Source: an uncultured Solirubrobacteraceae bacterium
GTDB lineage: Bacteria; Actinomycetota; Thermoleophilia; Solirubrobacterales; Solirubrobacteraceae
Assembly: GCA_963723395.1 (NCBI GenBank)
Contig: CAVRQL010000021.1
Span: forward strand, 308,206-372,205
DNA: 64,000 nucleotides
Direction of reading: 5' to 3'
The notes under the pieces were generated by a model. That model was not told where the DNA came from. It searched no databases and saw only the letters and a program-made list of their open reading frames with translations. How positions within the stretch are numbered: position 1 is the first letter of the stretch; every line of letters begins with the position of its first letter. The translations under genes and the position numbers were made by a program. Below, in pieces: positions 23,013 to 61,010 of the stretch.

Positions 23013-23478
23013 AGAAGCTCAACGTCGACGAAGCCACAGTCGAGTACGACTCCGACGACCCGGACGGGTTCAAGTCCGGCCGGATCCCCTTCCGCAAGCT
23101 CCTCGAAGCGAAGAAGACGGGCATCTAGCCTCTACGAGCTCCCACCCGGCCAGGCCATCTGCCCGTACCACTACGAGTACGCCGAGGAGGAGTGGCTCGT
23201 CGTGCTGTCCGGCACGCCGTCTGGTGCGCACGCCAGAAGGAGAGACCCGCTTCCGCGAATGGGACGTCTGCGTCTTCCCCCAGGGCCCCTCAGGAGCCCA
23301 CGGAGTCCGCAACGACACCTCCGAAGTCGTCCGAGTCCTCATGTTCTCCGACGTCATCTGGCCGGCCGCGACGGTCTACCCGGACAGCGACAAGATCGGC
23401 GTCTGGGTCGGCAACGACGACGACACCGCCATGTTCCTCCGCGACTCGAAGGTCGACTACTTCGAAGGCGAGACCTAG
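23009..23478 (+). CDS. Cupin domain protein (two apparent frameshifts)
   Basis: Start ATGA-overlaps the previous gene. Segments ...YELPPGQAICPYHYEYAEEEWLVVLSGTP and ...ETRFREWDVCVFPQGPSGAHGVRNDTSEVVRVLMF lie in different frames. Confidence 0.55.
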
Positions 23479-23730
23479 CCCAGCGTCAGCAGACGACGAT
23501 CAGATGGAACGGCAGGTCCGCAGGCGCGCCGCTCGCGTTCCGCGTGCGGACGACCACGCCACGAGCTCGTCGTCTCGGTCGTGACCTGACCGCCAGTCCG
23601 GGGTCGCGGTCCATCTGCGAACCGCGCGAGAGTCGCGACCGCGAAGCAAGCCGTCATGTCGCGCTCGAAACCGACGTCGTAGCGTCCCGATCCGCTCGGT
23701 CCATGCCCGCTGATCGCGCTCGCCGTCGCG

Positions 23731-26289
23731 CTACGAACGTTCGCCTCGGCTATCTACGGCGGCGGTGAACGGCGACTCCCGGCAGGGCCAGCTGGACCCT
23801 GCGGCCCAGCAGGCCCGGTCTGGCCTCGCAGCGAGCGCCGCGCTCGACAACGAGACAGGTCGTCGAGTCGGATCGCTCGACGCTTGATCTCGGCGGAGCG
23901 CACCGAGCCCGGTCTTCAGCTCGCTCGGCCCGACCGCCTTCGCGCGGATCTGCTTGGCGCCGACGCTGTTCCTCGGGAGCGCTGTCACCGCGTAGGACGT
24001 GCCGCCGAGGGCGATGAACACCGCCGCGGTCGCCATCACGTTCGCGTATGTCAGCTTCTCGCGGAGCCGTCTCATCTGCCGCAAGATACGCCCAGAGCTG
24101 CGAAAAGTTGCGGTCGTCACAGGCCGCGGACCGTGACTCGGACGAGCTCGCGACGATCCGGTCTCGTAGGGGAACGTCGCCTCGCGCGGGATCAGCGCGC
24201 GGAAGCGGTAGTCACGGCTCCCGCGGGTGGCCGTGAAGCGATACGGAACGCTCCACCGCCTGTCCGCCGTTGCGCGCGCGGCGTTGCGAAAGTCGACCAT
24301 CTGCCGCGCGTGTAGACCTGCAGGTGGATGAGCTTCCCGATATGCGCCTCGTCTGGCGGCCCTTGAGACGTCCGTGGAACCGGATCTCCTCGCCGTTGAC
24401 GACGCTTTGGCGCGTGACGTTCAACGTGGTCAGCGGCGCGGACACGGAGATCGACCACAGTCGAGCGAGCCCGGATCGTCGCCGTCCCGGGATAGCGGAA
24501 GCGGAGTGAGCCGACTCGGGCCGCGCAGCGCCTTGAACCGGAAGCGCCCCGGTGCGGACGTGCGCACCTGCGCCGACGCGTCGCCAGGTCGCGGACGGGC
24601 AGCTTGACGCGCTCCCAGACCTCGACGTCGGCGTCCGCTAGCGGATTCGCTCCGGGCGTCGTCAGGCGACCGCGCAGCGGGATCGTGCGTCCGTAGCGCG
24701 GCGCGCGGCCGTACGACGAGCACGGTCCGGTACCGGCGCTTGCCGCTAGTGTCCGCGCGCCCGAACCCGCGTCGGCCTTCCGACGCGCAAGGCGCGTCCC
24801 GAGGCGGATCGGCAGCGTCCGCTCGAGCCGCGGCTTCCGTCGGCGTCTCGGTCGATGGTGCGCTCGTTGCCGGCGAGGTCCCGCGCGCGCGCACGAAGCT
24901 CGTAGACGACCCTTGGGCAGGCGCTCGTCGTCGAGCACGGCGGAGAACGCCTTGCGACTCGAGAGACGGTCGGAAGCGAGCGCCACGCGTTCTCGCCTCG
25001 GCGGCGGGCCTCGATCCATGCCTCGGCGAGCCGCGACGTCGGATCGCTCGCGGCGACGCGTAACCCGAGCGGGATCGGCCGCGCAGGCTCGTCGAAGGCC
25101 AGGCTCGGCGCGTCCGTGGTCGAGCCGCAGACTCGCGAACGATGCCGAGCGCTCAGGGTCCTCGTTCCCGGCTGCGTCCTCGAGCCAGACGCTGAGCTCG
25201 CCACTCGCCTGGTCCAGGCACGCGTAAGCCCGAGATCGAGCTGGATGTCGCGGCCCCTCTGCGACGCCGTCGACGCACACCGCGCGTCGGCGGCGCCGTT
25301 AGGAGCGGGACAGATCCGATACTGCGCCGCTGCGATCGGGGCGGCCGGCTGCGTCGGATTCGCCCAGCGGACCGTGAAGTCGTTCTCGGCCGCCACCGGT
25401 CTCCCCGACGCAGCTCGGCGTCGAGCGGCTGCGCCGGCGGCGTGTTGTCGACCAGCACCTGCCGACTCGCCGCGTGGTTGCAGTTCCCCGCTCGCGTCGA
25501 ACGCGCGAACGGCGACGGTGTGCGCGCCGTCGCCGACGAAGCTCGCCGCGTCGGCAGTGGCACGCTCGAGGCCTCGGTCCGACATGGCGCGGCGAGCCAG
25601 ATGTTGCAGTGGCCGAGTGCACGTCCGCGCAGCTTGGCCGTCGACGCAGGACCTCGACGCTCCGGATGCCGGTCCAGTCCGGCGCCGAGAACCGAACGTC
25701 TGGCTGCCCCGGCGCCAGCCGCCGGCCGTCACGGAGCCTCCCGTGATCCCGACGCCGGGCGGCACGTTGTCTTCGACCGTGACGACGACGTCTTGCATCT
25801 TCACGAAGCCGTAATGAGGTCGGACCGCGGGCAGCCGTTGCCGTCGCCGCACGTCACCTGCGCAAAGAGCTGCGGGCGTGCGAGTCCGATGTCTTGACGC
25901 CCAGTACTGGCCCCAGGTCGTGCCGTTGGCTCCGCCCCAGATCCAGCGCGGAGTGCTGTCGACGAGGCCGGCGTGCCACCCGTGCGCCGAGCCCTGGTTG
26001 ACGCGCGCTCGGAAGCGCGACGATCGTCGTGTGGGCGGGGCGGTGAAGACCTGACGGGCGCCTGCCCCGAACGGTGCCGTGCCCGGAGCCTCCGGACATC
26101 CGGGTCACTATGCCCTCGCCGGGGCACGCTGTGTATGCCGTGACGCCAGCCGTTGGGCGACTTCGGGTGCCCAGGACCCGTTGCCAATGCGCAGCCGAGC
26201 AGGCGACGACGTCGTACGTGCCCGCAGACGCGGTCGTGGGGGCGGCGAGGGCGATCGTTGCGATCGCGAGGCCGAGGAGGCGCTTCATC
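23731..26289 (-). pseudogene. Large secreted repeat (Ig-like / bacterial-Ig-type) protein, heavily frameshifted
   Basis: Signal peptide MKRLLGLAIATIALAAPTTASA at about 26289. Downstream fragments in all three frames (…FVGDGAHTVAVRAFDASGE…, …VVYELRARARDLAGNERTID…, …VVVTVEDNVPPGVGITGGSV…) resemble Ig-like repeat domains. No single long ORF remains. Confidence 0.3.
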
Positions 26290-26302
26290 GGGAACTCCTT
26301 GA

Positions 26303-27763
26303 TCACGGCGTGAACTCCCCGCCGCCGGTGGCGGGTGGCGGATCCGGCTGTCGTGGTGGGGCTGCTGCGGATTGCTCGATCGAGAACTCGGCGACGGATT
26401 GCTGCTCGGGCTCGGCGATCGGGGCGGATTCGTGGGATGTCGGGGTCGTGCCCTGGCTCGGGTCCTTGGACGGTGAGCGGCGGGTGTTCGCGGAGCGGCG
26501 CTTGCGGACCGGGGCGGGCGCGCGCGTCGCGGCGGGCGTCGGGGTCGCGATGACCTCGGTGGTGCGGGCGGAGGCGGCGAGCTTGGCCCGGTCGTGGGAG
26601 GCCTTCGGCGCTGCCGGCTTCGCCACGCGAGGTTTGGCCGGCTCGGCCTGGCCCGGGAGCATCCAGCCCGGCGCGTGGACGACGCCGGTCGCGACGCAGA
26701 GCGCTCCTGCTCCGACGCCGCTGACGCAGAACCCGATCATGGTCGCGACGGCGGCGATGCGGCCTCCGCCGCTCGCGGTCGCGATGTGGATCCCGGCCGC
26801 GACGTCGGAGGAGTTGGAGCGGTGCACCAACGAGAGGGCCTCGTCCTTGATGCGCCCGAGCCCCGGCCGCACGCGGCCGGCGCGCTCCGGTAGCTCGATC
26901 GCGAGCTGGCCTCCGAGGTCCACCGCGTGGGGGACGACGGCATCCGGCGTGGGCGTCGCCGCCGGGACGGCGATGAGGCCGTCCTGCCGGATCAGCTCCT
27001 CCGCGGACTTGATGCCGTCCGGATGGGCGGTGACGCCGACGGCCGCGAGCGGGAAGAGCAGCCGGACGCGGTGGCGGGCGGAGATGTGGAGCTCGCGGAC
27101 GGTGGCCCGGCAGGCCGTGCAGTGGCGCAGGTGGGGGCGGACCTCGACGATCTGGGCGCTCGTCGCGGCGCCCTGCGCGAGGGCGGCGAGGATCGGGGCG
27201 AAGCGCTCGCACTCCTCGCCGGCCTCGATCGCCCGATAGGCCTTGAGGAACCGCTTGCGCCCCTCCGTGATCGCCCTGTTGACTTTCGTATACGTCCAAC
27301 CGAATCGCTCGCCGATCTCCGCATACGACATTCCCTCGGCCTTGAGCATCAGGGCCTTCGCCTCGTCGGGCTTGAGCGCTCGCAGCGCCTCGGCCGAGCG
27401 GCTGACCCGCTCGCCGCCCTCGATCTGGTCCTCGAGGCTGCGCTGGCCGGCCGGGACGTGGGCGTCGAGGTCGGGCTCCTGGTCGGCGACGGCGTCCTGG
27501 CGGGCGCGGCGGATGGCGATCGCTTCGTGCTTGATGACGACCTTCAGCCATGCGACCTCGGTCGCCGGCTCGACCGTGTCGGCGCGCTTGAAGAAGATCT
27601 CCAGCCCGCGCTGGTAGGCGTCCAGCGCGTCGTCGTGGCACAGCGAGAACTGGTAGGCGACGTGCAGGAGCAGCCGACCGTGCGTCGCCATGATCGCGGC
27701 CATGCGGCGCTCCGGGTCGTCATCCCGCAGCGCGAGCCGTCCTTGCACCCCTCCTGCCCTCAC
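26303..27763 (-). CDS. ECF-type RNA polymerase sigma factor fused in one ORF to a zf-HC2 anti-sigma domain with TM segment
   Basis: Sigma region 2 (…LLLHVAYQFSLCHDDALDAYQRGLEIFF…) and region 4 (…EAKALMLKAEGMSYAEIGERFGWTYTKVNRAITEGRKRF…) are followed without a stop by PHLRHCTACRATV (HxxxCxxC), the TM helix AAVATMIGFCVSGVGAGALCVA and a Pro/Ala-rich tail. Confidence 0.7.
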   Translation of the reverse strand: MRAGGVQGRLALRDDDPERRMAAIMATHGRLLLHVAYQFSLCHDDALDAYQRGLEIFFKRADTVEPATEVAWLKVVIKHEAIAIRRARQDAVADQEPDLDAHVPAGQRSLEDQIEGGERVSRSAEALRALKPDEAKALMLKAEGMSYAEIGERFGWTYTKVNRAITEGRKRFLKAYRAIEAGEECERFAPILAALAQGAATSAQIVEVRPHLRHCTACRATVRELHISARHRVRLLFPLAAVGVTAHPDGIKSAEELIRQDGLIAVPAATPTPDAVVPHAVDLGGQLAIELPERAGRVRPGLGRIKDEALSLVHRSNSSDVAAGIHIATASGGGRIAAVATMIGFCVSGVGAGALCVATGVVHAPGWMLPGQAEPAKPRVAKPAAPKASHDRAKLAASARTTEVIATPTPAATRAPAPVRKRRSANTRRSPSKDPSQGTTPTSHESAPIAEPEQQSVAEFSIEQSAAAPPRQPDPPPATGGGEFTP

Positions 27764-35083: not shown

Positions 35084-36467
35084 ATGGCCACCACCGAGCG
35101 CCAATCCGACATCAAGGACTCGATCCTCGACACCGTCGGGGACACGCCGCTGATCCGCCTCTCGCGGATCGCGCGCGGGGCTGAAGCCGCAGGTCGTGGC
35201 GAAGGTCGAGTACTTCAACCCCGGCGGCTCGATCAAGGACCGCGTCGCGATGCGCCTCGTCGAGGCCGCGGAGCGCGACGGGCGCCTGAAGCCCGGCGGG
35301 ACGATCATCGAGCCGACCTCGGGCAACACCGGCACCGGCCTGGCGATCGCGGCGCGCATCAAGGGCTACCGCGTGATCGCGGTGATGCCGGACAAGATGT
35401 CGCGCGAGAAGATCGACCTGCTGCGCGCCTACGGCGCCGAGGTCGTGGTGACGCCGACCGACGTCGACCCCGACTCGCCGCAGAGCTACTACCGGACGGC
35501 CGACCGCCTCACGCGCGAGATCCCCGGGGCCTTCCAGCCCAACCAGTACGCGAACCCCGCCAACCCGGAGACGCACTACCTCACCACCGGGCCGGAGCTG
35601 TGGAGCCAGAGCGGCGGCAAGGTCACGCACCTGGTCGTCGGCGTCGGCACCGGCGGGACGATCACCGGGATGGCCCGCTACCTGCGCGAGCAGAACCCGA
35701 AGATCGAGGTGATCGGCGCCGATCCCGTCGGCTCGATCTACTCCAACGACGAGGTCCACCCGTACCTCGTCGAGGGCGTGGGCGAGGACTTCTGGCCGAA
35801 GACCTACGACCCGTCGGTGGTCGACCGCTACGTGACGATCTCCGACCGCGACGCGTTCCTGACCACCCGTCGGCTGGCCGAGACCGAGGGGCTGCTCGTC
35901 GGCGGCTCCTGCGGGCTCGCGGTGGCCGCGGCGCTGGAGGTCGCGCGCGGGATCGACGACCCCGAGGCGATGGTCGCGGTCGTGCTCCCCGACGGCGGGC
36001 GCGGCTACCTGAGCAAGATCTTCAACGACGACTGGATGGACCAGTACGGGTTCCTCGAGCGCACGGGCGAGCGCCACGTCGGCGACGTGCTGCGCGCGAA
36101 GACGGCGGCCGGCGAGATCCCGCCGTTCGTGGTCGTCGAGACGCACCAGACGGTCCGCGACGCGATCACGCTGCTGCACGAGCACCGCGTCTCGCAGCTG
36201 CCGGTGGTCGACGGCTCGGGCTCGGTGGTCGGCTCGGTCGGCGAGCGCGGGCTGCTCAAGCGCGCGATCGACAACCCGCACCTGATGGGCACCGCGATCG
36301 CCGACGTGATGGAGGCGCCGTTCCCCAGCGTGGGCAACACGGATCCCGTGCGCGAGGCGGTCGAGCTGCTCTCGGGCGAGGGCAGCCAGGCGGTGACGGT
36401 GTCCGAGGGCGAGCGCCCGGTCGGCATCGTGACCCGCGCCGACCTCCTGGAGTCGCTGATCTCGTGA
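35084..36467 (+). CDS. Cystathionine beta-synthase (PLP domain plus tandem CBS domains); single-base insertion in GGGG run near 35178
   Basis: MATTERQSDIKDSILDTVGDTPLIRLSRIARG lies one frame away from KPQVVAKVEYFNPGGSIKDRVA...TSGNTGTGLA...; C-terminal CBS pair (…VRDAITLLHEHRVSQLPVVD…, …VGIVTRADLLESLIS). Confidence 0.8.
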
Positions 36468-37540: not shown

Positions 37541-37566
37541 GTAACCCGCCGATCCCTCGGGGAGAT

Positions 37567-38185
37567 GTTCCGTCTCCCGCTGCTCGCGTTCGCCCTTGCC
37601 CTGATCGCCGCCGTGCCCGCCGGCGCGATGGTCAAGCTCCCGCCCGTCCTCCCCGCCGTCGCCCACAACCCGGCCGACCGGATGCTCGGCGTCCCGATCG
37701 AGGACTCGGTCTACGACCCGGCCACCAAGTGCACGCCGAAGGCGCCCCGCCCGGGCGTCGCCGCCATGACGCGCTGGCTGCAGGCCAACACCCGCGGCGT
37801 GTTCTGGGGTTCGTACCGGTGCGAGAAGTGGGGCAAGCACGAGGCCTCGCTGCACGCCGAGAACCGCGCCATCGACTGGCACTTGGACGTCTTCGACCGC
37901 GCCGACAAGCGCGCCGCCGAGAAGCTGATCCGGCTGCTGCTCGCGCCCGACGCGGCCGGCAACCCGCAGGCGCTCGCGCGCCGCATGGGCGTCGAGGAGC
38001 TGATCTGGGACTGCGGGTACTGGGGCGCCGGGATGACCGGGTTCAACCCGTACAGCCCTTGTTACAAGCGCGGCAAGCTGCGCAAGAAGGTCAACCCGAC
38101 GATCGGGCACCGCGACCACATCCACATCGGCCTGACCAAGGACGCGGCCAGGGCCCGGACCTCCTTCTGGAGCAGGCACCGGTGA
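37567..38185 (+). CDS. Secreted peptidase M15-like (VanY-fold) protein, paralogue of 11165..12022
   Basis: Signal peptide MFRLPLLAFALALIAAVPAGA. M15 motifs SLHAENRAIDWHLD and HRDHIHIG. Confidence 0.55.
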
Positions 38186-38205
38186 TCTCGGGGCATACTC
38201 GCTGG

Positions 38206-38937
38206 ATGCGCCGCAGCGTGATCCTCGTCTGCATCCTGGGCGCCGTCGCCCTCGGCGCCGGCGTGCTCGCGATCGCGGCGGCCGGCGACGACAAGCCCTC
38301 TCCCAAGGCCGTGAGCCCTTCGGCCGGCGAGTCCAAGCTCCCGCCGCTGCCCTCCAAGCTGCGCCCGCGCGTGGTGCAGCCCGAGGCCGGCGCCGCCGGC
38401 GCGGAGGAGGAGTCCGAGTCCGTCGAGGACTCCGGGCTCGGCGAGGATCCCGGCCCGGCCCCGAAGCGCGCCGCCAGCACCGGCGGGCGCAGGCTCGACG
38501 GCGTCCTCAAGGGCGCCGGCGGGGGCGTGAACAAGGCGACCGCGCTCTCCAACGGCGTCGCGCTTCCGCCCTTCGAGGCGCCCGAGGCGGTCCGCCAGAT
38601 CATCGAGGCCGGCAACTCGATCGCCCGCACGCCGTACAAGTGGGGCGGCGGCCACGGCAAGTGGCAGGACACCGGCTACGACTGCTCCGGCTCGGTCTCC
38701 TTCGCGCTCGCCGCCGCCGGGCTGCTCGAGGGTCCGCTGGCCTCCGGGCCGCTGATGTCCTGGGGCGAGGCGGGGCCCGGCAAGTGGGTCACGATCTACT
38801 CCAACCCCGGGCACGTCTACCTCGTCGTGGCGGGCATCCGCTTCGACACCTCCGGAGCCCGCCAGACGGGCTCCCGCTGGCAGAACGAGCTGCGCACCAA
38901 CGAGGGCTTCGTCGCCCGGCATCCGACCGGGCTGTAA
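38206..38937 (+). CDS. Secreted NlpC/P60 family cell-wall peptidase, paralogue of 60237..61010
   Basis: Signal/TM anchor. Catalytic block TPYKWGGGHGKWQDTGYDCSGSVSFAL and ...NPGHVYLVVAGIRFD supplies the Cys-His-His triad context. Confidence 0.75.
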   Translation: MRRSVILVCILGAVALGAGVLAIAAAGDDKPSPKAVSPSAGESKLPPLPSKLRPRVVQPEAGAAGAEEESESVEDSGLGEDPGPAPKRAASTGGRRLDGVLKGAGGGVNKATALSNGVALPPFEAPEAVRQIIEAGNSIARTPYKWGGGHGKWQDTGYDCSGSVSFALAAAGLLEGPLASGPLMSWGEAGPGKWVTIYSNPGHVYLVVAGIRFDTSGARQTGSRWQNELRTNEGFVARHPTGL

Positions 38938-39033
38938 GCCTCGCTTGGGGTGACGACCCCATGGGTCGGCCCGCGCGGGGCGCCGATGAAGGGAATAGCA
39001 AGAGAGTTCCTTCCTGAATCGACCAGCTTCCTG

Positions 39034-39291
39034 ATGTCCCGCTCCCCGCTCTTCACGCACGATCTACCTGCCGGCCCGCCGCCTGAGGTGCTGGACGAGA
39101 TCGGCGCAGCGTGGGAGCGGGCTCAGGCGCTCGTCGACTTCGACCTGCACTTCGAGATCGACGCGGCGCGGCCGCGACGTGCCTTCGGAGAGCTGCGCCG
39201 CTCGGACGGAACGCTGGAGCGCAGGCTCACGGCCACAGAGGCGCTCGCGATCGCGTGTGGCGACCCCGTGGAGCCGCTGCTCCTCGTGTAG
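39034..39291 (+). CDS. Hypothetical protein
   Basis: Coding-like ORF MSRSPLFTHDLPAGPPPEVLDEIGAAWERAQ... with no recognisable family. Confidence 0.3.
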   Translation: MSRSPLFTHDLPAGPPPEVLDEIGAAWERAQALVDFDLHFEIDAARPRRAFGELRRSDGTLERRLTATEALAIACGDPVEPLLLV

Positions 39292-39320
39292 CTCAGCCGC
39301 CACGTGGTAAACCCAACCAC

Positions 39321-40005
39321 ATGGCTCTTAAACCGAAAGACATCCTCGACACCGTCACGGGTGTTGGAAAAACCGCCGTCAACGAGGTCACGAAGCGCTT
39401 CCGGCGCGACGAGTCCGACACCGAGCTGACCGCTCCCGCCGCGACCCCGGCCACGCCGGCCCCGGCCGCGCGGACGCGGCCGTCCAAGCCGCGCGCGGCT
39501 CGTGCGGGCGGGACGAAGACCGGCCGCTCGACGTCGGGCACCACCAAGACGTCCCGCACGCGTGCCGCGTCGACGGGCACCGCCAAGGCGAAGCCCGCCG
39601 GCCGCGCCGCCGCGCCGAAGGCCGGTGACGCGGGCGCCCCGAAGTCGGCGACCGCCAAGCCGAAGCCCGCCAAGAGCGCGGCGAAGAAGCCGGCTGCTGC
39701 GAAGAAGCCCGCGGCGGCCAAGCCCACGCCGGCGAAGCCCAAGCCGCCCGAGACGGCGAGCGCCTCCACCACCGCGGCGAGCGCGTCGAAGACGCCGTCC
39801 GCGGCCAAGCCGAAGCCCGCTCGCCGCGGCGAAGCCCGCTGCGGCGGCGAAGCCCGCGCCCGCGAAGCCGGCCGCCGCGAAGCCCGCGGCAGCCCCGCCG
39901 GCGCCCGCGAAGCCCTCGCCTGCCAAGCCCGCGGCGGCCGAGAAGCCGACGGCCGAGAAGGCCGACGACGCGGCGAAGACCCCCGCGGCGACGACCAAGA
40001 GCTAG
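39321..40005 (+). CDS. Lys/Ala/Pro-rich (PAKA-repeat) histone-like low-complexity protein; frameshift near 39830
   Basis: N-terminus MALKPKDILDTVTGVGKTAVNEV, then about 190 aa of AKPAAAKKPAAAKPTPAKPKP-type repeats resembling HU/H1-like C-terminal tails of actinobacteria. Confidence 0.55.
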
Positions 40006-40049: not shown

Positions 40050-42050
40050 ATGCGTCCCATCCCGGCCCCCCGCATCGGCGAGTCCCACGGGCTACTGCGC
40101 GCGATCAGCCAGCGCGAGCGCATCCGGCTCGACGAGTTCGTGACCGAGTTCTCGGTCGAGGACTTGTTCCCGCCCGGACTCGAGAACGCCTTCGGGCGGA
40201 CACGGCAGTTCGTCTCCTTCGCGCGGGCCGCCGGGCTCGTCAAGGAGGACCGCGGGACGGTCGAGCTGACCGAGATCGGCAAGCGCTACGTGCGCGCCGG
40301 CGACGAGGCGGACGTGTTCGCCGTCTCGGGCGCGCAGGCCGACTGGCTGCGCCGCCAGCTGCTCGAGAAGCACATGACGGACAGCATCTACCACGGCCTG
40401 GCCATCGGGCTGAGCCTGCTGTCCTCGGTGCCTCCGGCCACGCGGATCTCGATCCTGGACTTCGGACGCGCGCTGGGCTACCTCGGCCGGGCGGGCTGGG
40501 ACAACGACAACACGCTCCAGATCCAGGGCGAGCGGTACCTCGACCTGCTGCGCGACGTCGAGTTGATCGACGAGGAGCGCGGCCTGACGCGCACGGGTCA
40601 CGAGACCAAGGCCGAGCTCACGCTGCCGATCCACATGTCGCTGGGCGACCTGGCGGCGCAGCTGAACCCCGGCGGCGCCGAGGCCGTCCGCGCGGAGGGC
40701 GAGGCCGAGTGGGGCCGCGCCGAGGCCGCGCTCGCGCCCGAGGTGGCCTCCGATCCCCCGGTCGCGGGCCGTCGAGGAAGAGGAGGACGAGTGGCAGGAC
40801 GTCGGCCCGGGCGCCGCCGACCGGCCGCCCGTGCAGGCCTCGCCCGCCGAGCCGCCGCCACCGCCGCCCGCGCAGACCGCTCCGCCGGTGGCTCCCGCCC
40901 CCGCCGACGCCCGCCGCGGCGGAGGCCCCGCCGTCCCCGCCCGCCGACGTGTGGGAGACCGCCGAGCCCTACGAGACGACGAGCGCGTACGCGGCGGTCA
41001 AGCCGCCGGAGCCCGCCGCGCCACCGAGCCCGAGCCCGAACCCGAGCCGCCCGCGGGCCCCGGCTTCACCTCCGGCGATCCGCTGGCCGCGGATCCGCGC
41101 GCCCGCAGGACGCCGCGACCGTCATCTCGCAGCACACCGAGACGCCGCCGCCCGCCCCAGGCTCCGCCGCCGCCGCGGCTCCGCCGCCGGTCGCCGCCCC
41201 GCCGCCGGAGCCGCCGCGCCTCGCCGAGGCGCCGCCGCCACCGCCGCGCTCCGCCAGCGGGTTCCTCGACGTCGCCGCGATCCGCAGCGCCGCCGAGTCG
41301 CAGGGCCTGCGCCTCCCGGGGGCCGTCTACGCCAACGTCGCGGCCGCGCTCGCGGCGGGCAAGCACGTCGTGCTGATCGGCGCCGCCGGCTCGGGCAAGA
41401 CGACGCTGGCGCTCGCGATCGCGCAGGCCGCCGCGTCGTCCGGGCCGCTCGTCCGGCGCGATGCTCGTCACGGCCGCCGACGGCTGGACGCTGGGCGACA
41501 CGCTCGGCGAGGACGGCTCGCAGCCCGGCCACGTCGTCGAAGCCGCCGGGCGCGGCAAGTGGATGGTGATCGACGAGCTCGACCGCGCGCCGCTCGACCA
41601 CGCGCTCGGCGGGCTCTCCTCGTTCCTCTCCGGGCTCCCGGTGACGCTGCCGGGCGGGGAGGAGGTCAAGCGCGGCGAAGGACTGGCGGATCGTGGCCAC
41701 GGCGGCGACGTCGCTCGACGCCACCCCCGCGCTGTGGCGCCGGTTCGCGCACGTCGAGCTGCCGGCTCCTGCGGACGCCGACCTCGAGGCGGCGATCGAC
41801 GCCGCCGCCGGCGGCGACCCGGCAGCGGCGGGCGCGGCGCGCAGGCTGCTCGTGCTGCGCGAGCTGCGCACCCTCGGCGCGGGCGTGTTCGCGGACGCCG
41901 CCGCCCACGCGGCGGAGCGCAACGCGATCGAGCCGGCCGACGAGCGGACGCTGGCGCGGGAGGCCTACAACGCGTACTTCGAAGGCCTCCTGCACGGGCT
42001 CGACGACCGCGAGCAGGTCCGCCTGCGGGAGCTGCTCGGCGGGCTTGTAG
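40050..42050 (+). CDS. Winged-helix N-domain / Pro-rich linker / AAA_5 (McrB/MoxR-like) ATPase; 3 or more frameshifts
   Basis: About 230-aa N-terminal domain with two wH-like repeats; a Pro-rich linker spread over three frames; Walker A VVLIGAAGSGKTTLALAIA; Walker B KWMVIDELDRAP; sensor/arginine region RIVATAATSLDATPALWRRFAHVEL. Confidence 0.6.
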   Translation: MRPIPAPRIGESHGLLRAISQRERIRLDEFVTEFSVEDLFPPGLENAFGRTRQFVSFARAAGLVKEDRGTVELTEIGKRYVRAGDEADVFAVSGAQADWLRRQLLEKHMTDSIYHGLAIGLSLLSSVPPATRISILDFGRALGYLGRAGWDNDNTLQIQGERYLDLLRDVELIDEERGLTRTGHETKAELTLPIHMSLGDLAAQLNPGGAEAVRAEGEAEWGRAEAALAPEVASDPPVAGRRGRGGRVAGRRPGRRRPAARAGLARRAAATAARADRSAGGSRPRRRPPRRRPRRPRPPTCGRPPSPTRRRARTRRSSRRSPPRHRARARTRAARGPRLHLRRSAGRGSARPQDAATVISQHTETPPPAPGSAAAAAPPPVAAPPPEPPRLAEAPPPPPRSASGFLDVAAIRSAAESQGLRLPGAVYANVAAALAAGKHVVLIGAAGSGKTTLALAIAQAAASSGPLVRRDARHGRRRLDAGRHARRGRLAARPRRRSRRARQVDGDRRARPRAARPRARRALLVPLRAPGDAAGRGGGQARRRTGGSWPRRRRRSTPPPRCGAGSRTSSCRLLRTPTSRRRSTPPPAATRQRRARRAGCSCCASCAPSARACSRTPPPTRRSATRSSRPTSGRWRGRPTTRTSKASCTGSTTASRSACGSCSAGL

Positions 42051-42922
42051 GTGGCGGCGCGCGGCAGCCCGGCCGAGCGCGCCGCGCTCGCGCGCGCCAA
42101 GGCACGTCTGGACCGCCTCGACTTCCACCCGGCGCCCGTGCGCACCGGGCGCACGCGCATCTTCCACGCGCCGTGGCTGTTCCGGCTGCCCTGGTTCCGG
42201 CGCTTCGACGGCTACGAGTCGTGCGAGCAGATCTTCATCCGCCGCCCGCTCGCCGAGGTCTCCGACGACCTGATCGTCCACGAGCTCTGCCACGTGTGGC
42301 AGGAGCAGCACGGGCGGCTGCGGATGTGGCTGTCCTACCTGCTCGGCTACCGCGAGAACCCGAACGAGGTCGAGGCCCGGCGGGCCGTCGCGGAGACCCG
42401 TCGTGCCACCATGATCCACGTGTCTCCTGCACAGGATCCCGGCGCCCTGAAGGCGCTCGCGCTCCATGCCGAGGCGCTCGCCACGGTGCGCGCGTTCGCC
42501 GAGCGCGCCGACGCGCTGCGCGTCGTGCTGCTCGTCGACAACGGCGACGAGGACCAGCCCGCGATGCTGGACCGCTCGGCCGACGGGACCGTCGAGCTGA
42601 CCCACGAGGGGACGGCGTGGACCGTGCCCGCCGGCGACGCCCGTCCCGGCGCCCCCGCGCGCCCTGCCCGACATCCGCCCCGCGCCGTCCTCGTCCCTGC
42701 GCGCCGACCCGGTGACCGGCGAGCTGGCCGCCCCGATCGGGGCGATCGCGAACCTCGCCGAGGCCGTGCTCGGGACTGGCGCGCGCGTTCGGCGGGCGCA
42801 GCGTCGCCTCCGCCGAGTTCGCGACGCACGACCCCGAGCTGCCGATGACGATCGTCGCCCGCCAGGGCGAGCCGCTCCTGCTCGCGGTCGGCGACGGCCG
42901 CTTCGAGCTGCCGATCGAGTGA
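42051..42922 (+). CDS. DUF45/WLM (YgjP-like) HExxH zinc metallohydrolase-like protein; 2 or more frameshifts in the C-terminal half
   Basis: GTG directly abuts the ATPase stop. IVHELCHVWQEQHGRLRMWLSYL matches the DUF45 signature VHELaHLxexNHSxxFW. C-terminal segments lie in other frames. Confidence 0.5.
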
Positions 42923-43245
42923 CGACCGGCGAGCGCTGCACCTGGTGCGGGGCTCCCGTCGAGGCCGGCGACGGCTTCCGCGCCTACGAGGCGGCCGGCG
43001 GCAGGCGGGCGGTGTTCTGCCGGCTCGAGCACGTCGTGCCGTGGGCGATCCGCGGCGCGCGCTGGGACGCGGGGGAGAGCGAGGCCGCCGACGGACTGGA
43101 GGAGTGCGCGTTCTGCGCCGCGCCGCTCGGCGAGCTCCACGTGGCGCTCGTGCGATCGCGCGGTGACGCGCGGATCCCGGACGGCTTCTGCGGCGTCGAC
43201 CACCTGCTCGAGTGGGCGAAGGCCGGCGGCCGCTACCGGCTTTGA
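42919..43245 (+). CDS. Small Cys-rich zinc-ribbon-like protein
   Basis: CTWCG...FCRLEHVVPW...CAFC...FCGVDH gives four CxxC-like pairs. GTGA overlap with the upstream gene. Confidence 0.5.
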   Translation: MTTGERCTWCGAPVEAGDGFRAYEAAGGRRAVFCRLEHVVPWAIRGARWDAGESEAADGLEECAFCAAPLGELHVALVRSRGDARIPDGFCGVDHLLEWAKAGGRYRL

Positions 43246-43291: not shown

Positions 43292-43672
43292 ATGATCCAT
43301 CACCGCCACTACACCGTGGATGAGGCCAACCATCAGCTCGAGGTCGTCGGACGGATCGTGGAGCGGATCCGCGAAGCCCGCGGCCGGCTCACCGACGAGG
43401 GCGTCGACTCGGAGTTCGCCACCCTCGCCGAGCTGTCGGGCGGCGCCTACCCCGGTGCGGCGCACGCAGCCGCGGCGCTCGAGGTGGCCCTCGGGTTCGA
43501 CCAGCTGGAGGAGCTCGACGTGGTGGTGCGCGACCTGGAGCGCGGCCTGATCGACTTCCCGTCGCTGCTGGGCGGCGAGGAGGTCTACCTGTGCTGGCTG
43601 CTCGGCGAGCCTTCGGTCGGCCACTGGCACGCCGTCGAGGGCGGCTTCGCCGGCCGCCGCCCCCTCGACTAG
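43292..43672 (+). CDS. DUF2203-like conserved hypothetical protein
   Basis: MIHHRHYTVDEANHQLEVV...EVYLCWLLGEPSVGHWHAVEGGFAGRRPLD; small conserved actinobacterial protein. Confidence 0.45.
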   Translation: MIHHRHYTVDEANHQLEVVGRIVERIREARGRLTDEGVDSEFATLAELSGGAYPGAAHAAAALEVALGFDQLEELDVVVRDLERGLIDFPSLLGGEEVYLCWLLGEPSVGHWHAVEGGFAGRRPLD

Positions 43673-44917: not shown

Positions 44918-45808
44918 GTGTCGCTCTTCTGCCGCCACAACCGGCTGACCGCCAACTGCCCGATCTGCAGCAAGGAGCTGCAGGCCGAGCTGAAGTCCAA
45001 GGCGCCCCCGGCGCCCGCCCGCCCGCGCTCGAGCGGCACGGCCAAGCGGGCCCGCAGCAGCACCCGCTCCGGCGTCGTGACCCGCCGCGTGGCGCGCGCG
45101 GCCGACGACGGCTACCGCTCCCCGCTCGCCCCCGGGCTGCGGGCGACGGCCGACGCGGAGCGGCTCGCCGCGGCGCTCGCGGACGCCGCCGCGCGGCTCG
45201 ATCCCCCGGGCCCGTACCCGGAGATCGCCGACGTGGGAGACATCGAGGACGCCACCTGGCTGGCGTTCCTGCTCGCGCTCGCGAGCCCCGACGCGCCCGA
45301 CCTCCAGCGCGCGCTGCTCGAGGCGCGCCCGGCGTGGGCCGACGGCGTGCCCGAGGACCTCCCGGAGCCGCGCCGGCGTACTGCCGAGGCCTACCGCGCG
45401 TGGGCGGGGCGGGCCGGCTCGCAGGCTGCCGCCTTCCGCGGGGAGCCCGGCTGGAGCCCGGAGCGCCGCTTCGCCCGCGTGTTCGAGCGGCTCGCGCTGC
45501 CCGGTCTCAACCGCGCCCGCCGCTTCGACCTGCTGAGCGCGCTCTCCGCCGCGGGCCTGTACGAGATGGAGGCGGGCGAATTGCAGCTCGGCCCCGACGA
45601 CGACCCGGCCACGCTCGCCGCCAAGCGGCTGCTCGTGTCCGGCGACCGCGGCTTGCTGGAGCGCCGCGCGCGCGACCTCGCCGACGCCTGCGGGGTGCCG
45701 ATCGCCGCGCTGGACCGCGGCCTCGCGGTGTGGAACACGCCCGGCGCCCACGTCGATCTCGTGGGCGACCCGCCCGCCGCGATCCGCGGCGCGCTCGGGC
45801 TGATTTGA
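44918..45808 (+). CDS. Hypothetical protein with N-terminal CxxC...CxxC zinc-ribbon
   Basis: GTG overlapping the P450 stop. CRHNRLTANCPIC, then an Ala/Arg-rich helical domain. Confidence 0.4.
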   Translation: MSLFCRHNRLTANCPICSKELQAELKSKAPPAPARPRSSGTAKRARSSTRSGVVTRRVARAADDGYRSPLAPGLRATADAERLAAALADAAARLDPPGPYPEIADVGDIEDATWLAFLLALASPDAPDLQRALLEARPAWADGVPEDLPEPRRRTAEAYRAWAGRAGSQAAAFRGEPGWSPERRFARVFERLALPGLNRARRFDLLSALSAAGLYEMEAGELQLGPDDDPATLAAKRLLVSGDRGLLERRARDLADACGVPIAALDRGLAVWNTPGAHVDLVGDPPAAIRGALGLI

Positions 45809-47749: not shown

Positions 47750-49333
47750 ATGGCGACGATCGCCCCCCGGCGCGCTGCGTGGACGCTTCCCGCCGCCAGC
47801 GCGCACGTGCTCGACCCCGCTCGCCCTCGGCGGGCTCGTCGCCCTGTCGCTGTACCTGCGCACGCGGGACCTCAACGCGGGGTTCTGGATCGACGAGGGC
47901 CTGTCGGTGGGGATCGCGGACCGGCCGCTGGCCGACATCCCGGCCGCGCTGCGCCTCGACGGATCGCCGCCGCTGTACTACTCGCTCCTGCACGTCTGGA
48001 TGTCGCTGTTCGGGCGCACGGAGGAGGCGACCCACGCGCTCTCGGTGCTGTTCGTGCTGCTCGCGATCCCGGCCGCCTTCTGGGCGGCGCGGGGCGTGTT
48101 CGGGAACGCCGCCGGCTGGGCCGCCGCGGTGCTCGCCGCGCTGAACCCGTTCATGACGCAGTACGCGCAGGAGACGCGGATGTACGCGCTCGTGATGCTC
48201 CTGGGCATGCTCGCCTGCGGGGCGTACGCGCGCGCCTTCCTGCTCGGCGACGAGCTCCCGCCCAAGACGCGCCGGCGCTGGGCGATGGTGTTCGCGCCGC
48301 TGCTCGCGGCGATGCTCTACACGCACAACTGGGCGCTGTTCTTCGGCGTCGGCTGCGGCGTCGCGTGGCTCGGGATGCTGGCCGCCGCGCGCGACGGCAC
48401 GCGGCGGGAGCTGTTCCTCGACGGGCTGATCGGGTTCGGCGGCGCGCTGGTGCTGTTCGCGCCGTGGCTGCCGACGCTCGTCTTCCAGGCGCAGCACACG
48501 GGCGCCCCGTGGTCCAGCCCGCCGGGCGTCGACGACCTGCTCGGCGTGCCGCTGCGGCTGCTCGGCTCGGTCGGGCAGATCGCGCTGCTGCTGGCCGCCG
48601 GCGTCGGCATGGTCGCGCTGCTGGACCGGGCTCGCAGGGCCGGATCAGCCGGCGCGGGCGGGCGATGATCGCGCTGGCCGCCGTGTTCGTCCTCACCGTG
48701 CTGGCCGCGTGGTTCGCCTCGAACGTCTCGCCCGCCTGGGCTTCGCGCTACCTCTCGGTGGCGGTCGCGCCGCTGCTGCTGGTGGCCGCCGCCGGGCTCG
48801 CCCACGCCGGGCGCCTGGGCGTGGTCGGCGCCGTCGTGGTCGCGCTGATCTGGGCCGGCGACGGCGCGCCCTCGATCAAGAGCAACGTGCGCCAGGTCTC
48901 CGAGTCGATCGCGCCCAGCCTGCACAAGGGCGACCTCGTCGTCTCCACGCAGCCCGAGCAGATCCCGGTGCTGCACTACTACCTGCCGGACGGGCTGCGC
49001 TACGCGACGCTGTGGGGCCCGGTCGACGACCTCGGGGTCACCGACTGGCGCGACGGCGTCGCCCACCTGCGGGGCACCAACGCGGAGGAGAACCTCAAGC
49101 CGCTGATCGACGCGATGCCCCGCGGCAGCCGGATCGTCCTCGTGGAGCCGGTGATCGACTCGATCGGGGCCTGGCTGGCGCCGTGGACGGAGCTCGTGCG
49201 CGTGCGCTCGACCGAGTGGCGCCAATGGGTCTCCAACGACCCGCGGCTGACCGCCACGGCCGTGCGCCCGGAGGACCCGCTCGCGCTGTGGGGCAACCAC
49301 ATGGTCAGCGCGACCGTGCTGGTCAAGGACTGA
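47750..49333 (+). CDS. Glycosyltransferase family 39 (PMT/ArnT-like) membrane protein; 2 or more frameshifts
   Basis: ...NAGFWIDEGLSVGIADRPLADIPAAL...PLYYSLLHVW... is the GT39 N-terminal signature. The body is split across frames (47907..48668, then 46448..49333 frame). Confidence 0.6.
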   Translation: MATIAPRRAAWTLPAASAHVLDPARPRRARRPVAVPAHAGPQRGVLDRRGPVGGDRGPAAGRHPGRAAPRRIAAAVLLAPARLDVAVRAHGGGDPRALGAVRAARDPGRLLGGAGRVRERRRLGRRGARRAEPVHDAVRAGDADVRARDAPGHARLRGVRARLPARRRAPAQDAPALGDGVRAAARGDALHAQLGAVLRRRLRRRVARDAGRRARRHAAGAVPRRADRVRRRAGAVRAVAADARLPGAAHGRPVVQPAGRRRPARRAAAAARLGRADRAAAGRRRRHGRAAGPGSQGRISRRGRAMIALAAVFVLTVLAAWFASNVSPAWASRYLSVAVAPLLLVAAAGLAHAGRLGVVGAVVVALIWAGDGAPSIKSNVRQVSESIAPSLHKGDLVVSTQPEQIPVLHYYLPDGLRYATLWGPVDDLGVTDWRDGVAHLRGTNAEENLKPLIDAMPRGSRIVLVEPVIDSIGAWLAPWTELVRVRSTEWRQWVSNDPRLTATAVRPEDPLALWGNHMVSATVLVKD

Positions 49334-60039: not shown

Positions 60040-60236
60040 GAGTGGCGCGCCGTAAACGGGACATAACGCCGAATCCCACCCGGTGGAGGCCGTGGTGGGA
60101 GCGGGGGAACCAAGGCAGGTGGCCCAGGGAAACCGGGGCCGGGGGCGAATCGCCGTAGACATGCGGCGTAGCGCGAATTCTTCAGCGCGAGCCCGACAGC
60201 TAACCCCGTAGGCGGTTGAGGAAAGGGAAAACCGTC
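60040..60236 (+). promoter_or_regulatory. Candidate ydaO-type cyclic-di-AMP riboswitch in the leader of the NlpC/P60 hydrolase gene
   Basis: Elements in ydaO order: CGCCGAAUCCCACC (60067), GGGGGAACCA (60103), GGGGGCGAAUCGCC (60141), ACCCCGUAGGCGGUUGAGGAAAGGG (60203-60227). The 209-nt leader ends just before the GTG start at 60237. Confidence 0.55.
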
Positions 60237-61010
60237 GTGTCGCGCTGTCGTACGTTCGTGGCGACTCTGGCCATAGCCGGGGTTGCTGCTCCATTCGCAT
60301 TGGCCGGGGAGGCCGATGCTGCTGCGCTGGGTAAGCGCACGCTCCGCCAGGGCATGTCCGGCAAGGACGTGAAGAAGCTGCAGAAGTACCTCACCAAGGT
60401 GGGCATCGTCACGAAGGCCGACGGTGAGTACGGCCCGGCGACCGCCCGCCGCGTGAAGTCGTGGGAGCGCCGCTCCGAGCGCAAGGTCAACGGTCGCCTG
60501 GAGCGCCCGGACGCACGCAAGCTCAAGCAGCAGGTCGCGGCCGGCATCACCGTCTACGCGGCGCCGGTGCCCGAGCCGGCCCAGCCGAACACCGGCGAGG
60601 TCGCCGTCCTGAACGCCGACGGCACCGCCACGGCGCCCGAGACCGCTCCCGAGCAGGTCAAGCAGATCATCGAGGCGGGCAACCGCATCATCGACAAGCC
60701 GTACAAGTACGGCGGCGGCCACGGCCAGTGGGAGGACTCGGGCTACGACTGCTCCGGCTCGATGTCCTACGCGCTGCACGGCGCCGGGCTGGTCGACGAG
60801 GCGCTCACCTCAGGCGACTTCTCCTCTTGGGGCGAGGCCGGCAAGGGCGAGTGGGTCACCACCTACGGCAGCGGCGGTCACTCCTACATGGTCGTGGCCG
60901 GGCTGCGCTTCGACACCGGCTACAACGACGGCGACTCCGACGGCCCCGACTGGAGCACGAAGATGCGCCCGGGCGACGGCTACACGGCGCGCCACCCGGC
61001 AGGTCTGTAG
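60237..61010 (+). CDS. Secreted NlpC/P60 family cell-wall peptidase with N-terminal peptidoglycan-binding domain
   Basis: PG_binding_1-like LRQGMSGKDVKKLQKYLTKVGIVTKADGEYGPATARRV. Catalytic block KPYKYGGGHGQWEDSGYDCSGSMSYAL. GTG 60237 preferred over the ORF-track TTG 60216, which lies inside the leader RNA. Confidence 0.8.
   Translation: MSRCRTFVATLAIAGVAAPFALAGEADAAALGKRTLRQGMSGKDVKKLQKYLTKVGIVTKADGEYGPATARRVKSWERRSERKVNGRLERPDARKLKQQVAAGITVYAAPVPEPAQPNTGEVAVLNADGTATAPETAPEQVKQIIEAGNRIIDKPYKYGGGHGQWEDSGYDCSGSMSYALHGAGLVDEALTSGDFSSWGEAGKGEWVTTYGSGGHSYMVVAGLRFDTGYNDGDSDGPDWSTKMRPGDGYTARHPAGL

What the first reader, a model, noticed from the sequence alone, without database searches (positions are those of the whole stretch)
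40050..43245. Uncharacterised three-gene module: winged-helix/Pro-rich/AAA_5 (McrB-like) ATPase, DUF45/WLM-type HExxH metallohydrolase and zinc-ribbon protein
Three tightly coupled genes (start/stop overlaps GTG/TAG and GTGA) share no recognisable pathway context with their neighbours. Gene 1 is a two-repeat winged-helix N-domain joined by an about 150-aa proline-rich linker to an AAA_5 ATPase; gene 2 carries a YgjP/DUF45-type HELCH...W motif; gene 3 is a 108-aa protein with four CxxC-like pairs. McrB-family ATPases with DNA-reading N-domains and DUF45 hydrolases are both enriched in restriction/defence loci, and a WLM-type protease with an AAA unfoldase recalls the eukaryotic Wss1-Cdc48 pairing for DNA-protein crosslink repair. 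I am not aware of a described system with this combination. It could be a nucleic-acid-targeting defence or repair module.
Basis: partly seen in the sequence, partly recalled or inferred. Interest (0 to 1): 0.75.

Follow-up and report, generated by a model that had tools for sequence, protein, structure and literature searches.

The report
Domesticated McrB-like ATPase with small neighbours
The region holds four (not three) tightly packed genes led by a DNA-binding ATPase descended from a restriction-enzyme motor, which soil Solirubrobacteraceae inherit vertically at a fixed chromosomal site without its nuclease partner; the many frameshifts are most likely long-read assembly errors.

Summary
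The genes are real, but the description needs correcting. Intact orthologues show four genes:
- a 600-950 aa protein: tandem winged-helix N-domain, Pro/Ala-rich linker, AAA_5 ATPase
- a ~118 aa HExxH zincin
- a ~110 aa protein with two CxxC...CxxxH zinc motifs

The window copy has about 10 frame disruptions. The gene is broken in 16 of 33 'MFD' MAG loci and in 0 of 15 isolate or other assemblies, so assembly error is the likely cause.

The ATPase belongs to the McrB family by descent. Its N-domain folds like the FokI recognition domain. Distant relatives, such as one in Conexibacter stalactiti, add a PUA-like reader and an overlapping partner gene with a PD..EVK motif.

It sits in one conserved syntenic block in all 50 loci, with no defence neighbours. 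The zincin is closest to DUF4157/VgrG2b, not DUF45/WLM. It is inverted or absent in about 18 loci, and the zinc protein occurs in only one subclade.

Best reading: a co-opted McrB-like DNA-anchored NTPase, with S. aureus PcdA as precedent. Its role is unknown. A defence role is not supported.

The parts
40050..42050 (+). Gene 1: McrB-family AAA+ protein. Intact orthologues are 456-953 aa. The window copy has 7 frame disruptions.
   Evidence: GC3 frame plot; tblastn with P0001/P0002 and motif probes. It is a single ORF in 31 of 48 loci. The public frame-0 call is P0076, 666 aa.
40050..40715 (+). N-domain: tandem winged-helix domain, intact in frame 0. The residues from Met1 onward (MRPIPAPR...) are invariant across the family.
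40716..41250 (+). Pro/Ala/Glu-rich linker with three conserved short motifs: EWQDVGPG (40768-40815, frame 1), PPADVWETAEPYETTSAY (40925-41014, frame 2) and FTSGDPL (41050-41121, frame 1). It returns to frame 0 at RPQDAATVIS (41100).
   Evidence: Motif tblastn. The motifs are conserved in homologues whose linkers range from 100 to 450 aa.
41251..42050 (+). AAA_5 (McrB-type) ATPase plus helical lid. Walker A GAAGSGKT is in frame 0 (~41380), Walker B IDELDRA in frame 1 (41455-41679), and WRIVAT / LWRRF / lid in frame 2 (41681-42046). An extra T at 42045 moves the stop.
   Evidence: Pfam AAA_5 E 5.4e-10, positions 1-139 of 139. Profile against PDB: midasin 6e-29, NorQ 3.6e-6, McrB 9e-5.
42051..42401 (+). 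Gene 2: ~117 aa cytosolic mini-zincin with HELCH (His/Glu/His) plus NPNEVEA. The stop codon is missing here.
42411..42922 (+). It has two +1 frame changes, at ~42663 and ~42773.
   Evidence: tblastn frames. It is a separate gene in L001 and L004. No Pfam or PDB relative. 1390 clusters; the 120 listed are all stand-alone, 155-176 aa.
42919..43245 (+). Gene 4: 108 aa protein with two CxxC-x21-23-CxxxH units (FCS/TRASH-like). The ORF is intact and its GTG start overlaps the p160 stop.
   Evidence: Weak, below-cut-off Pfam hits to DUF7576, zf-FCS and L24e. Present in only 9 of 52 related loci, always directly after p160.
39034..40005 (+). Conserved upstream neighbours: an ~85 aa protein (39034-39291) and an Ala/Lys/Pro-rich protein (39321-40005, one frame change near 39850).
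   Evidence: Synteny. No Pfam match for either: window 38950-39291, and the L004 orthologue of the Ala/Lys/Pro-rich protein.
43292..43672 (+). Conserved downstream neighbour: a DUF2203 protein.
   Evidence: Pfam E 2.3e-29; synteny.

Best explanation
[quoted passage not shown] I think it has been co-opted from a restriction system for a housekeeping job on the chromosome.

Shown:
- It has a FokI-like tandem winged-helix N-domain.
- It has a 100-450 aa disordered linker carrying three conserved short motifs.
- Its AAA_5 module keeps Walker A, Walker B, the sensor-1 Thr, the RRF arginine box and the lid arginines.
- Its nearest relatives outside the family carry the same N-domain plus a PUA-like reader. 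They are followed by an overlapping 403-408 aa partner gene with a PD..EVK motif.
- The gene sits at one syntenic site in every locus.

Inferred:
- The protein binds chromosomal DNA through the winged helices.
- It assembles into a nucleotide-dependent ring.
- The linker motifs recruit partner proteins, as PcdA of S. aureus does with FtsZ and DivIVA. The role would be in nucleoid organisation, segregation or the cell cycle.

The DUF4157-like mini-zincin, p160 and the zinc protein are operon-packed neighbours in the window's clade. They may be accessory partners, but their link to the ATPase is not established. The frameshifts in the window are most likely assembly errors.
For: Homology and loss of restriction features:
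- Chain of homology to McrB, and McrB-like DELDRA..LDRALG motifs.
- The PUA-like domain and the partner gene are present in L053, L054 and L055, with L054 next to cas1.
- No partner homologue was found within the sequence held (up to 10 kb each side) in 52 loci plus the window.

Vertical inheritance:
- All 50 genome hits are Solirubrobacteraceae/Solirubrobacterales, apart from one MAG labelled Chloroflexia. They include S. soli, S. deserti, S. phytolaccae, S. taibaiensis and Ca. S. pratensis.
- Synteny is identical from CBS through the NlpC-like gene to the ATPase.
- The N-domain is about 73% identical (eyeballed median) across species, against about 81% for CBS in the same table.
- The catalytic residues are invariant.

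Precedent: PcdA is a McrB-family protein without McrC that works in cell division (bioRxiv 10.1101/2023.09.03.556088).

Assembly error:
- 16 of 33 MFD MAG copies are broken, against 0 of 15 other assemblies.
- Other window genes are also frameshifted.
- GC3 stays at or above 0.9 in most frame segments, less clearly in the linker.
Against: - There are no functional data of any kind.
- Synteny within one family cannot separate functional linkage from shared descent.
- A conserved chromosomal defence or repair role is not excluded.
- The 4-nt overlaps and 3-nt gap between the ATPase, zincin and p160 genes in the window's clade suggest co-translation with the zincin. That would fit an effector role.
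- I could not count how many Solirubrobacteraceae genomes lack the gene.
- DNA binding and ring formation are inferred only from fold and motifs.
Confidence: 0.5

Rival explanations
1. A non-canonical McrB-derived defence or conflict system. A DUF4157-type zincin (with p160 and sometimes the zinc protein) replaces the McrC nuclease as the effector triggered by the DNA-reading AAA+ motor.
For: - McrB descent.
- Operon-like packing in L001, L004 and the window: a 4-nt overlap or 3-nt gap.
- DUF4157 zincins are toxin or effector domains elsewhere.
- The zincin's catalytic residues are invariant.
Against: - The locus is fixed, syntenic and single-copy, with housekeeping neighbours.
- The zincin is convergent to the ATPase in 10 loci and undetected next to it in about 8.
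- No PADLOC model matches gene 2, 3 or 4.
- The N-domain is strongly conserved, unlike typical specificity domains.
Confidence: 0.15
2. A DNA-protein crosslink or roadblock-clearance pair, analogous to Cdc48-Wss1/SPRTN. The DNA-anchored AAA+ protein would present DNA-bound proteins to the small zincin.
For: - The ATPase has a DNA-binding domain.
- A housekeeping repair role would fit a core, syntenic gene.
Against: - The best zincin matches are DUF4157/VgrG2b. The SprT and WLM Pfam models hit only 2 and 1 of 18 members, at E >= 0.028.
- The AAA+ module is of the McrB/MoxR clade, whose known members do not thread polypeptides (established knowledge).
- The zincin is inverted or missing in about 18 loci.
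Confidence: 0.08
3. An ordinary MoxR/NorQ-type chaperone ATPase acting on a neighbouring protein.
For: - JGI names many members 'MoxR-like ATPase'.
- The profile matches NorQ over the whole module, E 3.6e-6.
Against: - The gene tables read (L001, L002) list no VWA partner gene.
- The full-length homology is to McrB-type proteins with a nuclease-like partner.
- A FokI-like DNA-binding N-domain is not a MoxR feature.
Confidence: 0.07
4. In this particular genome the locus is a decaying pseudogene cluster, so the module is no longer functional here.
For: About 10 frame disruptions lie in 3.2 kb, against about 2 in the other ~11 kb of syntenic coding sequence checked.
Against: - There are no in-frame stops inside the stitched reading.
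- GC3 stays at or above 0.9 in most frame segments.
- Divergence from relatives is no greater than for intact orthologues.
- Breakage tracks the assembly source: 16 of 33 MFD MAGs against 0 of 15 others.
- Several of the inserted bases lie in short homopolymer runs: GGG at 41442, TT at 42045.
Confidence: 0.12

Closest known systems
McrB (GTPase/AAA+ subunit of McrBC type IV restriction; PDB 6hz4, 6ut3)
   Same: - Both have an AAA_5 module with the DExxRA..(D/S)xxFG motif and an RRF box.
- Both have an N-terminal DNA-reading domain.
- Homology is demonstrable through Conexibacter P0192.
   Different: - No McrC-like partner gene was found within the flanks held, up to 10 kb each side.
- The NxxD (MNxxDKS) signature and most of the pre-sensor-1 insert are lost.
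- The reader domain is a FokI-like tandem winged helix rather than a DUF3578/EVE-type modification reader.
- It has a long Pro-rich linker.
- It sits at a core syntenic locus.
PcdA of Staphylococcus aureus (McrB-family protein co-opted for division-plane selection)
   Same: - Both are lineage-restricted McrB-family proteins with no linked McrC.
- Both show altered NTPase motifs.
- A shift away from restriction is shown experimentally for PcdA and is proposed here.
   Different: - PcdA keeps two EVE domains, has lost the lid and has a degraded Walker A.
- This protein keeps all core motifs and the lid, and uses winged helices plus a disordered linker.
- No experimental data exist for this protein.
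FokI / N.BspD6I / BpuJI recognition domains
   Different: - The domain is attached to an AAA+ module rather than a nuclease.
- DNA specificity is unknown.
DUF4157 / eCIS_core zincins (e.g. the VgrG2b C-terminal metallopeptidase, PDB 6h56)
   Same: - Both have the HE(L/M)xHVxQ motif.
   Different: - All Pfam scores are below the gathering cut-off.
- This protein is a stand-alone 118 aa protein with no N-terminal hydrophobic stretch or carrier domain (by eye; no signal-peptide predictor was run), not a toxin domain fused to a secreted carrier.
- It has a likely Glu third ligand, in NP(N/H)ExEA.
MoxR/NorQ/CbbQ AAA+ chaperones
   Same: Both belong to the AAA_5 clade, and NorQ aligns over the full module.
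   Different: There is no VWA partner gene in the gene tables read (L001, L002). This protein has a DNA-binding N-domain, and its closer homology is to McrB-type proteins.

Membership tests
McrB family (AAA+ subunit of McrBC) | AAA_5-type AAA+ module homologous to McrB | tested here: met
   Pfam AAA_5 E 5.4e-10. Profile against McrB 6ut3: 9e-5, partial. P0001 to P0192: 9e-41. P0192 to E. coli McrB 6hz4: 7e-7.
McrB family (AAA+ subunit of McrBC) | GTPase signature NxxD (MNxxD(R/K)S) before the RRF box | tested here: not met
   The distant relatives have ATMNVFDKS. The Solirubrobacteraceae proteins have WRIVATA plus a short variable loop.
McrB family (AAA+ subunit of McrBC) | Adjacent McrC-type partner (McrC-NTD/DUF2357 plus PD-(D/E)xK nuclease) | tested here: not met
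   A partner with a PD..EVK motif follows the distant relatives, with a weak DUF2357 hit at E 0.013. No homologue was found in 52 loci or the window; the best E-value was 0.077.
McrB family (AAA+ subunit of McrBC) | N-terminal DNA reader domain | tested here: met
   Tandem winged helix with a FokI-like fold. DNA binding itself was not tested.
McrB family (AAA+ subunit of McrBC) | Hexamer formation and partner-stimulated GTP hydrolysis | not testable with these tools
   This needs biochemistry. Only the conservation of Walker A, Walker B and the Arg box is seen.
YgjP-like / DUF45 (PF01863) | Score at or above the Pfam gathering cut-off (26 bits) | tested here: not met
   The window protein scores 13.7 bits. 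Among 18 family members, the only bit score shown is 16.1, for the first member; 9 of 18 match at E <= 1, best E 0.0042.
WLM (PF08325) / SprT-like (PF10263) | Score at or above the Pfam gathering cut-off | tested here: not met
   [not shown]
DUF4157 / eCIS_core (PF13699) | Score at or above the Pfam gathering cut-off (22 bits) | tested here: not met
   16 of 18 members match, but the best E-value is 0.0011, and the only bit scores printed are 13.4 and 14.2. The best structural neighbour, VgrG2b C-ter, is a DUF4157-type protein.
Zincin metallopeptidase fold | HExxH helix plus a third ligand on a mixed alpha/beta scaffold | tested here: met
   [not shown]
MoxR-VWA chaperone system | Neighbouring VWA-domain partner gene | tested here: not met
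   No VWA family appears in the gene tables of L001 and L002. The stitched window proteins gave no VWA hit.
Known anti-phage defence systems (PADLOC-DB 2.0) | Specific model hits for the component proteins | tested here: not met
   The ATPase gave only weak matches covering little beyond the nucleotide-binding loop region (best: mad8, 2e-7 over about 50 residues). The N-domain, zincin plus p160, and zinc protein gave none.

The most novel reading that the evidence does not exclude
The operon seen in the window's clade (ATPase, zincin, p160, zinc protein) could be an undescribed McrB-derived machine in which a protease has replaced the McrC nuclease. The sequence-reading AAA+ ring would sit on chromosomal DNA and deliver DNA-bound proteins, or proteins on modified DNA, to a DUF4157-type zincin. 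The system would be fixed in the core genome of Solirubrobacteraceae. A DNA-glycosylase-like aGPT-Pplase3 gene two genes further downstream would then hint at a link to DNA base modification.
Probability: 0.1. Interest if true: 0.75.

Novelty: new variant of a known kind. Interest (0 to 1): 0.45.

Why it matters
If the reading is right, this would be a second bacterial case, after PcdA, of a restriction-system motor kept by a whole lineage for a cellular job. Here the DNA-binding domain and NTPase motifs are intact, and the likely ancestor type survives in the same order (Conexibacter). That pairing would let one study how a defence ATPase is re-used.

It would also give a first functional lead for a conserved gene in Solirubrobacteraceae. 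These bacteria are common in soil (established knowledge) and barely studied.

There is a practical point too. Databases hold the window's gene as a 666 aa frame-0 artefact. Many MFD MAG copies are broken in the same way, which will mislead automated annotation.

Tried and rejected
- Pfam and PADLOC on the stitched proteins gave nothing specific for the N-domain, p160 or the zinc protein.
- The p160 profile against PDB gave only spurious ankyrin-repeat motif matches.
- hhalign of p160 against the McrC-like partner of the distant relatives showed no relation, probability 0.2%.
- The partner profile against PDB found nothing. Its McrC-like nature therefore rests on the PD..EVK motif and one weak DUF2357 hit.
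- The afdb50 fold library was unavailable.
- An exact look-up of the window's own 666 aa product found no contig. The source assembly is therefore inferred, not identified, from 'NCBI, ENA, 681,877-bp contig'.
- I expected an rRNA operon in the window's non-periodic 23.4-26.4 kb stretch. Rfam found none.
- I first thought all frame changes were +1, which would suggest a single error mode. Motif mapping showed two -1 changes in the linker.
- Family sizes (401, 6157 and 1390 hits) cannot be compared, because each search scored only 8000 word-sharing candidates.
Full report
**What is in the sequence**

The window is 69-78% G+C. In such DNA the third-codon-position GC signal marks the reading frame clearly. 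Between 40050 and 43245 that signal changes frame about every 150-700 bases, whereas most of the window shows runs of 1 kb or more.

Translating all three frames and comparing them with an intact relative shows that the window's first gene is one gene read through seven frame disruptions. The relative is P0001, 649 aa, 84% identical over the best local alignment, which covers 46% of the query. The pieces are:
- frame 0: 40050-40742
- frame 1: the EWQDVGPG motif, 40768-40815
- frame 2: PPADVWETAEP...AY, 40925-41014
- frame 1: FTSGDPL, 41050-41121
- frame 0: from RPQDAATVIS at 41100 through Walker A
- frame 1: 41455-41679, with Walker B
- frame 2: 41681-42046
- an extra T in GGGCTTGTAG moves the TAG stop into frame 0

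The public annotation of this contig simply calls the frame-0 ORF (P0076, 666 aa), which is meaningless after about residue 230. The stitched ATPase matches Pfam AAA_5 over the whole model (E 5.4e-10), so the stitching is correct.

**Four genes, not three**

Two Solirubrobacteraceae contigs, L001 (a JGI metagenome contig) and L004 (a MAG), have the same neighbourhood with clean ORFs. In L004 the layout is:
- ATPase: 671 aa
- HExxH protein: 118 aa, starting 3 nt after the ATPase stop
- a separate protein of ~171 aa
- zinc protein: 111 aa, with a GTGA overlap
- then DUF2203 and a P450 gene

The 120 best database hits listed for the HExxH protein are 107-159 aa. Those listed for the next protein ('p160') are 155-176 aa. 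Neither is seen fused.

In the window the HExxH gene (42051-42401) has no stop and reads in frame into p160. The sequence at the junction is 2 nt shorter than in L004. p160 (42411-42922) has two more frame changes. The zinc-protein gene (42919-43245) is intact. It has two CxxC-x21-23-CxxxH units, with weak, below-cut-off matches to DUF7576, zf-FCS and L24e-type zinc ribbons.

**Are the frameshifts biology?**

Most likely not.
- Across 48 loci that hold both ends of the gene, it is a single ORF in 31.
- All 16 broken loci carry the 'MFD' label in their record titles, that is 16 of the 33 MFD loci. I take these to be long-read MAGs from my own knowledge of that catalogue; this was not checked here.
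- None of the 15 other assemblies is broken. These are the cultured or named Solirubrobacter genomes, other MAGs and L001.
- The window has further frame changes in cystathionine beta-synthase (~35175), in a 531 aa gene (~48635) and in the Ala/Lys/Pro-rich gene upstream (~39850).
- The stitched reading has no internal stops.
- GC3 stays at or above 0.9 in most frame segments, though less clearly in the linker.
- Divergence from relatives is like that of intact orthologues.
- Two of the located insertions lie in short runs, GGG and TT.

Why the errors pile up in 39.8-42.9 kb is not shown. This is among the most GC-rich parts of the window, and the linker length varies greatly between strains. 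Both could degrade a metagenomic consensus; that is inference.

**What gene 1 is**

*The family is narrow.* An exhaustive profile search of 1.84 billion representatives found only 117 proteins with this domain.

*The distant members are informative.* P0168, P0178, P0192 and P0194 have the same N-domain, then a middle region (Pfam Pua-like in P0192 and P0194), then the same ATPase subtype. That subtype carries DELNRSNFDRAFGQLF, MNVFDKS and ALMRRF. P0183, P0204 and P0216 carry another McrB-type ATPase.

P0192 is from Conexibacter stalactiti, which is in the same order. It matches P0001 at E 9e-41 over both the N-domain and the ATPase. It matches E. coli and Thermococcus McrB at about 1e-6.

In three separate contigs these relatives are followed by an overlapping gene of 403-408 aa. 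That gene has an RPD...E-V-K motif, and one copy gives a weak DUF2357 hit. One of the contigs has cas1 next door. I read these as McrBC-like two-gene restriction systems. The nuclease assignment is inferred from the motif.

**What has changed in the Solirubrobacteraceae branch**
- The PUA-like region is replaced by a Pro/Ala/Glu-rich linker of 100-450 aa with three conserved short motifs.
- The insert before sensor 1 is much shorter, and the NxxD signature is gone.
- No homologue of the partner gene lies within the flanks held (up to 10 kb each side) in 52 loci or in the window.
- Walker A, Walker B, WRIVAT, the RRF box and the lid arginines stay invariant or nearly so.

The profile also matches midasin AAA modules and NorQ. 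That places the module in the AAA_5 clade generally. There is no VWA gene in the neighbourhood tables read, for L001 and L002, so a MoxR-VWA system is not what this is.

**Context and co-conservation**

A scan of one genome per species found the gene in 50 loci. All are labelled Solirubrobacteraceae or Solirubrobacterales, apart from one MAG labelled Chloroflexia. They include five cultured or named Solirubrobacter species.

Every locus long enough shows the same order:
- cystathionine beta-synthase
- cystathionine gamma-lyase (called in L001 and L002)
- two cell-wall-hydrolase-like genes
- an ~85 aa gene
- an Ala/Lys/Pro-rich gene (seen in the loci read in detail)
- the ATPase

This is a vertically inherited block, not a defence island.

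Within it:
- The zincin follows the ATPase on the same strand in most of the loci long enough to tell. It lies convergent to the ATPase in 10 and is undetected in about 8.
- p160 is adjacent in some loci and displaced by 1-9 kb of inserted genes in others.
- The zinc protein exists in only 9 loci plus the window, always directly after p160.

Because everything here is syntenic, adjacency alone says little about function. The only hint of coupling is the overlap or near-abutment of stops and starts in the window's clade.

**The zincin**

Pfam hits are all below the cut-offs. eCIS_core/DUF4157 matches 16 of 18 members, YgjP-like 9, SprT-like 2 and WLM 1. VgrG2b-like proteins are annotated as DUF4157 (PMC6899460), so sequence and structure agree on the nearest family. 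The protein has invariant H, E and H residues plus an NP(N/H)ExEA motif that could supply a Glu ligand. By eye it has no N-terminal hydrophobic stretch; no signal-peptide predictor was run.

**Most likely mechanism**

I propose a co-opted McrB-family NTPase. It would bind chromosomal DNA through FokI-like winged helices, form a nucleotide-dependent ring, and use its linker motifs to hold partners. The role would be in nucleoid or cell-cycle organisation.

The precedent is PcdA of S. aureus. PcdA is a lineage-restricted McrB-family protein with no McrC. It binds FtsZ and DivIVA (bioRxiv 10.1101/2023.09.03.556088).

What is shown here is domain composition, the chain of homology, loss of the restriction-specific parts, and synteny. 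DNA binding, ring formation and the cellular role are inferred. I put this at about 0.5.

The rivals are:
- a zincin-effector defence system (0.15)
- real pseudogenisation in this genome (0.12)
- a crosslink-repair pair (0.08)
- a MoxR-type chaperone (0.07)

**Verdict**

This is an uncharacterised, lineage-specific variant of a known family. It is moderately interesting, chiefly as a candidate second example of McrB domestication, with the ancestral type still present in a sister family.

Noticed in passing
window 44918-45808 (+): A 296 aa protein that starts with a CxxC zinc motif matches Pfam aGPT-Pplase3, a family named after the phage thymidine-hypermodification enzymes, which have a DNA-glycosylase-like fold. 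The match is above the cut-off (32.2 bits against 25; E 9.4e-8). The gene is syntenic in L001, and tblastn finds it intact in one frame in the window. It lies three genes downstream of the zinc-protein gene.
   Followed up: partly
L002 10507-17115 (and L013, L019, L021, L026, L033, L035, L038, L047): In the loci where the zincin gene is inverted, several kb of inserted sequence separate it from p160. In L002, the only such locus whose genes I read, it is the last gene of a minus-strand cluster holding asparagine synthase, two GCS2 ligases, a Peptidase_C26/GATase and a circularly permuted ATP-grasp. The zincin may belong functionally to that amide-ligase cluster.
   Followed up: no
window 23400-26400: About 3 kb shows no third-position GC periodicity in any frame. 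There is no rRNA or other Rfam family and no tandem repeats. The minus-strand ORF fragments look protein-like, so this may be another heavily frameshifted gene or foreign DNA.
   Followed up: partly
window 60057-60229 (+): A c-di-AMP riboswitch (ydaO/yuaA type; 74.5 bits; E 1.9e-15) lies upstream of the coding run that starts near 60271.
   Followed up: no
window ~35170-35181, ~39850, ~48626-48644: There are single frame changes in three genes outside the finding: cystathionine beta-synthase, the Ala/Lys/Pro-rich gene and a 531 aa membrane-protein gene. Indel errors are therefore not confined to the module.
   Followed up: partly
window 37565-38185 and 38194-38937 (+): Two conserved genes lie upstream of the module. 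The first has an SxHxxGxAxD-like motif (SLHAENRAIDWH), as in VanY/LAS zinc peptidases. The second has a C-terminal part that I read by eye as NlpC/P60-like. Both assignments are by eye only: Pfam gave no hit for the first, and the second was not scanned.
   Followed up: no
L008 (CAVZSO010000009.1): A MAG labelled 'uncultured Chloroflexia bacterium' carries the whole Solirubrobacteraceae syntenic block at 75-91% protein identity for most of its genes. The label is probably a binning or taxonomy error.
   Followed up: no
gene 1 residues 1-8 (window 40050-40073): The N-terminus is nearly invariant from Met1 across the whole family: MRPIPA(P/S/T)R(I/L)G. It is modelled without secondary structure. 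The distant McrB-like relatives keep an IPxL.I.YAHGLL version. Its function is unknown.
   Followed up: no
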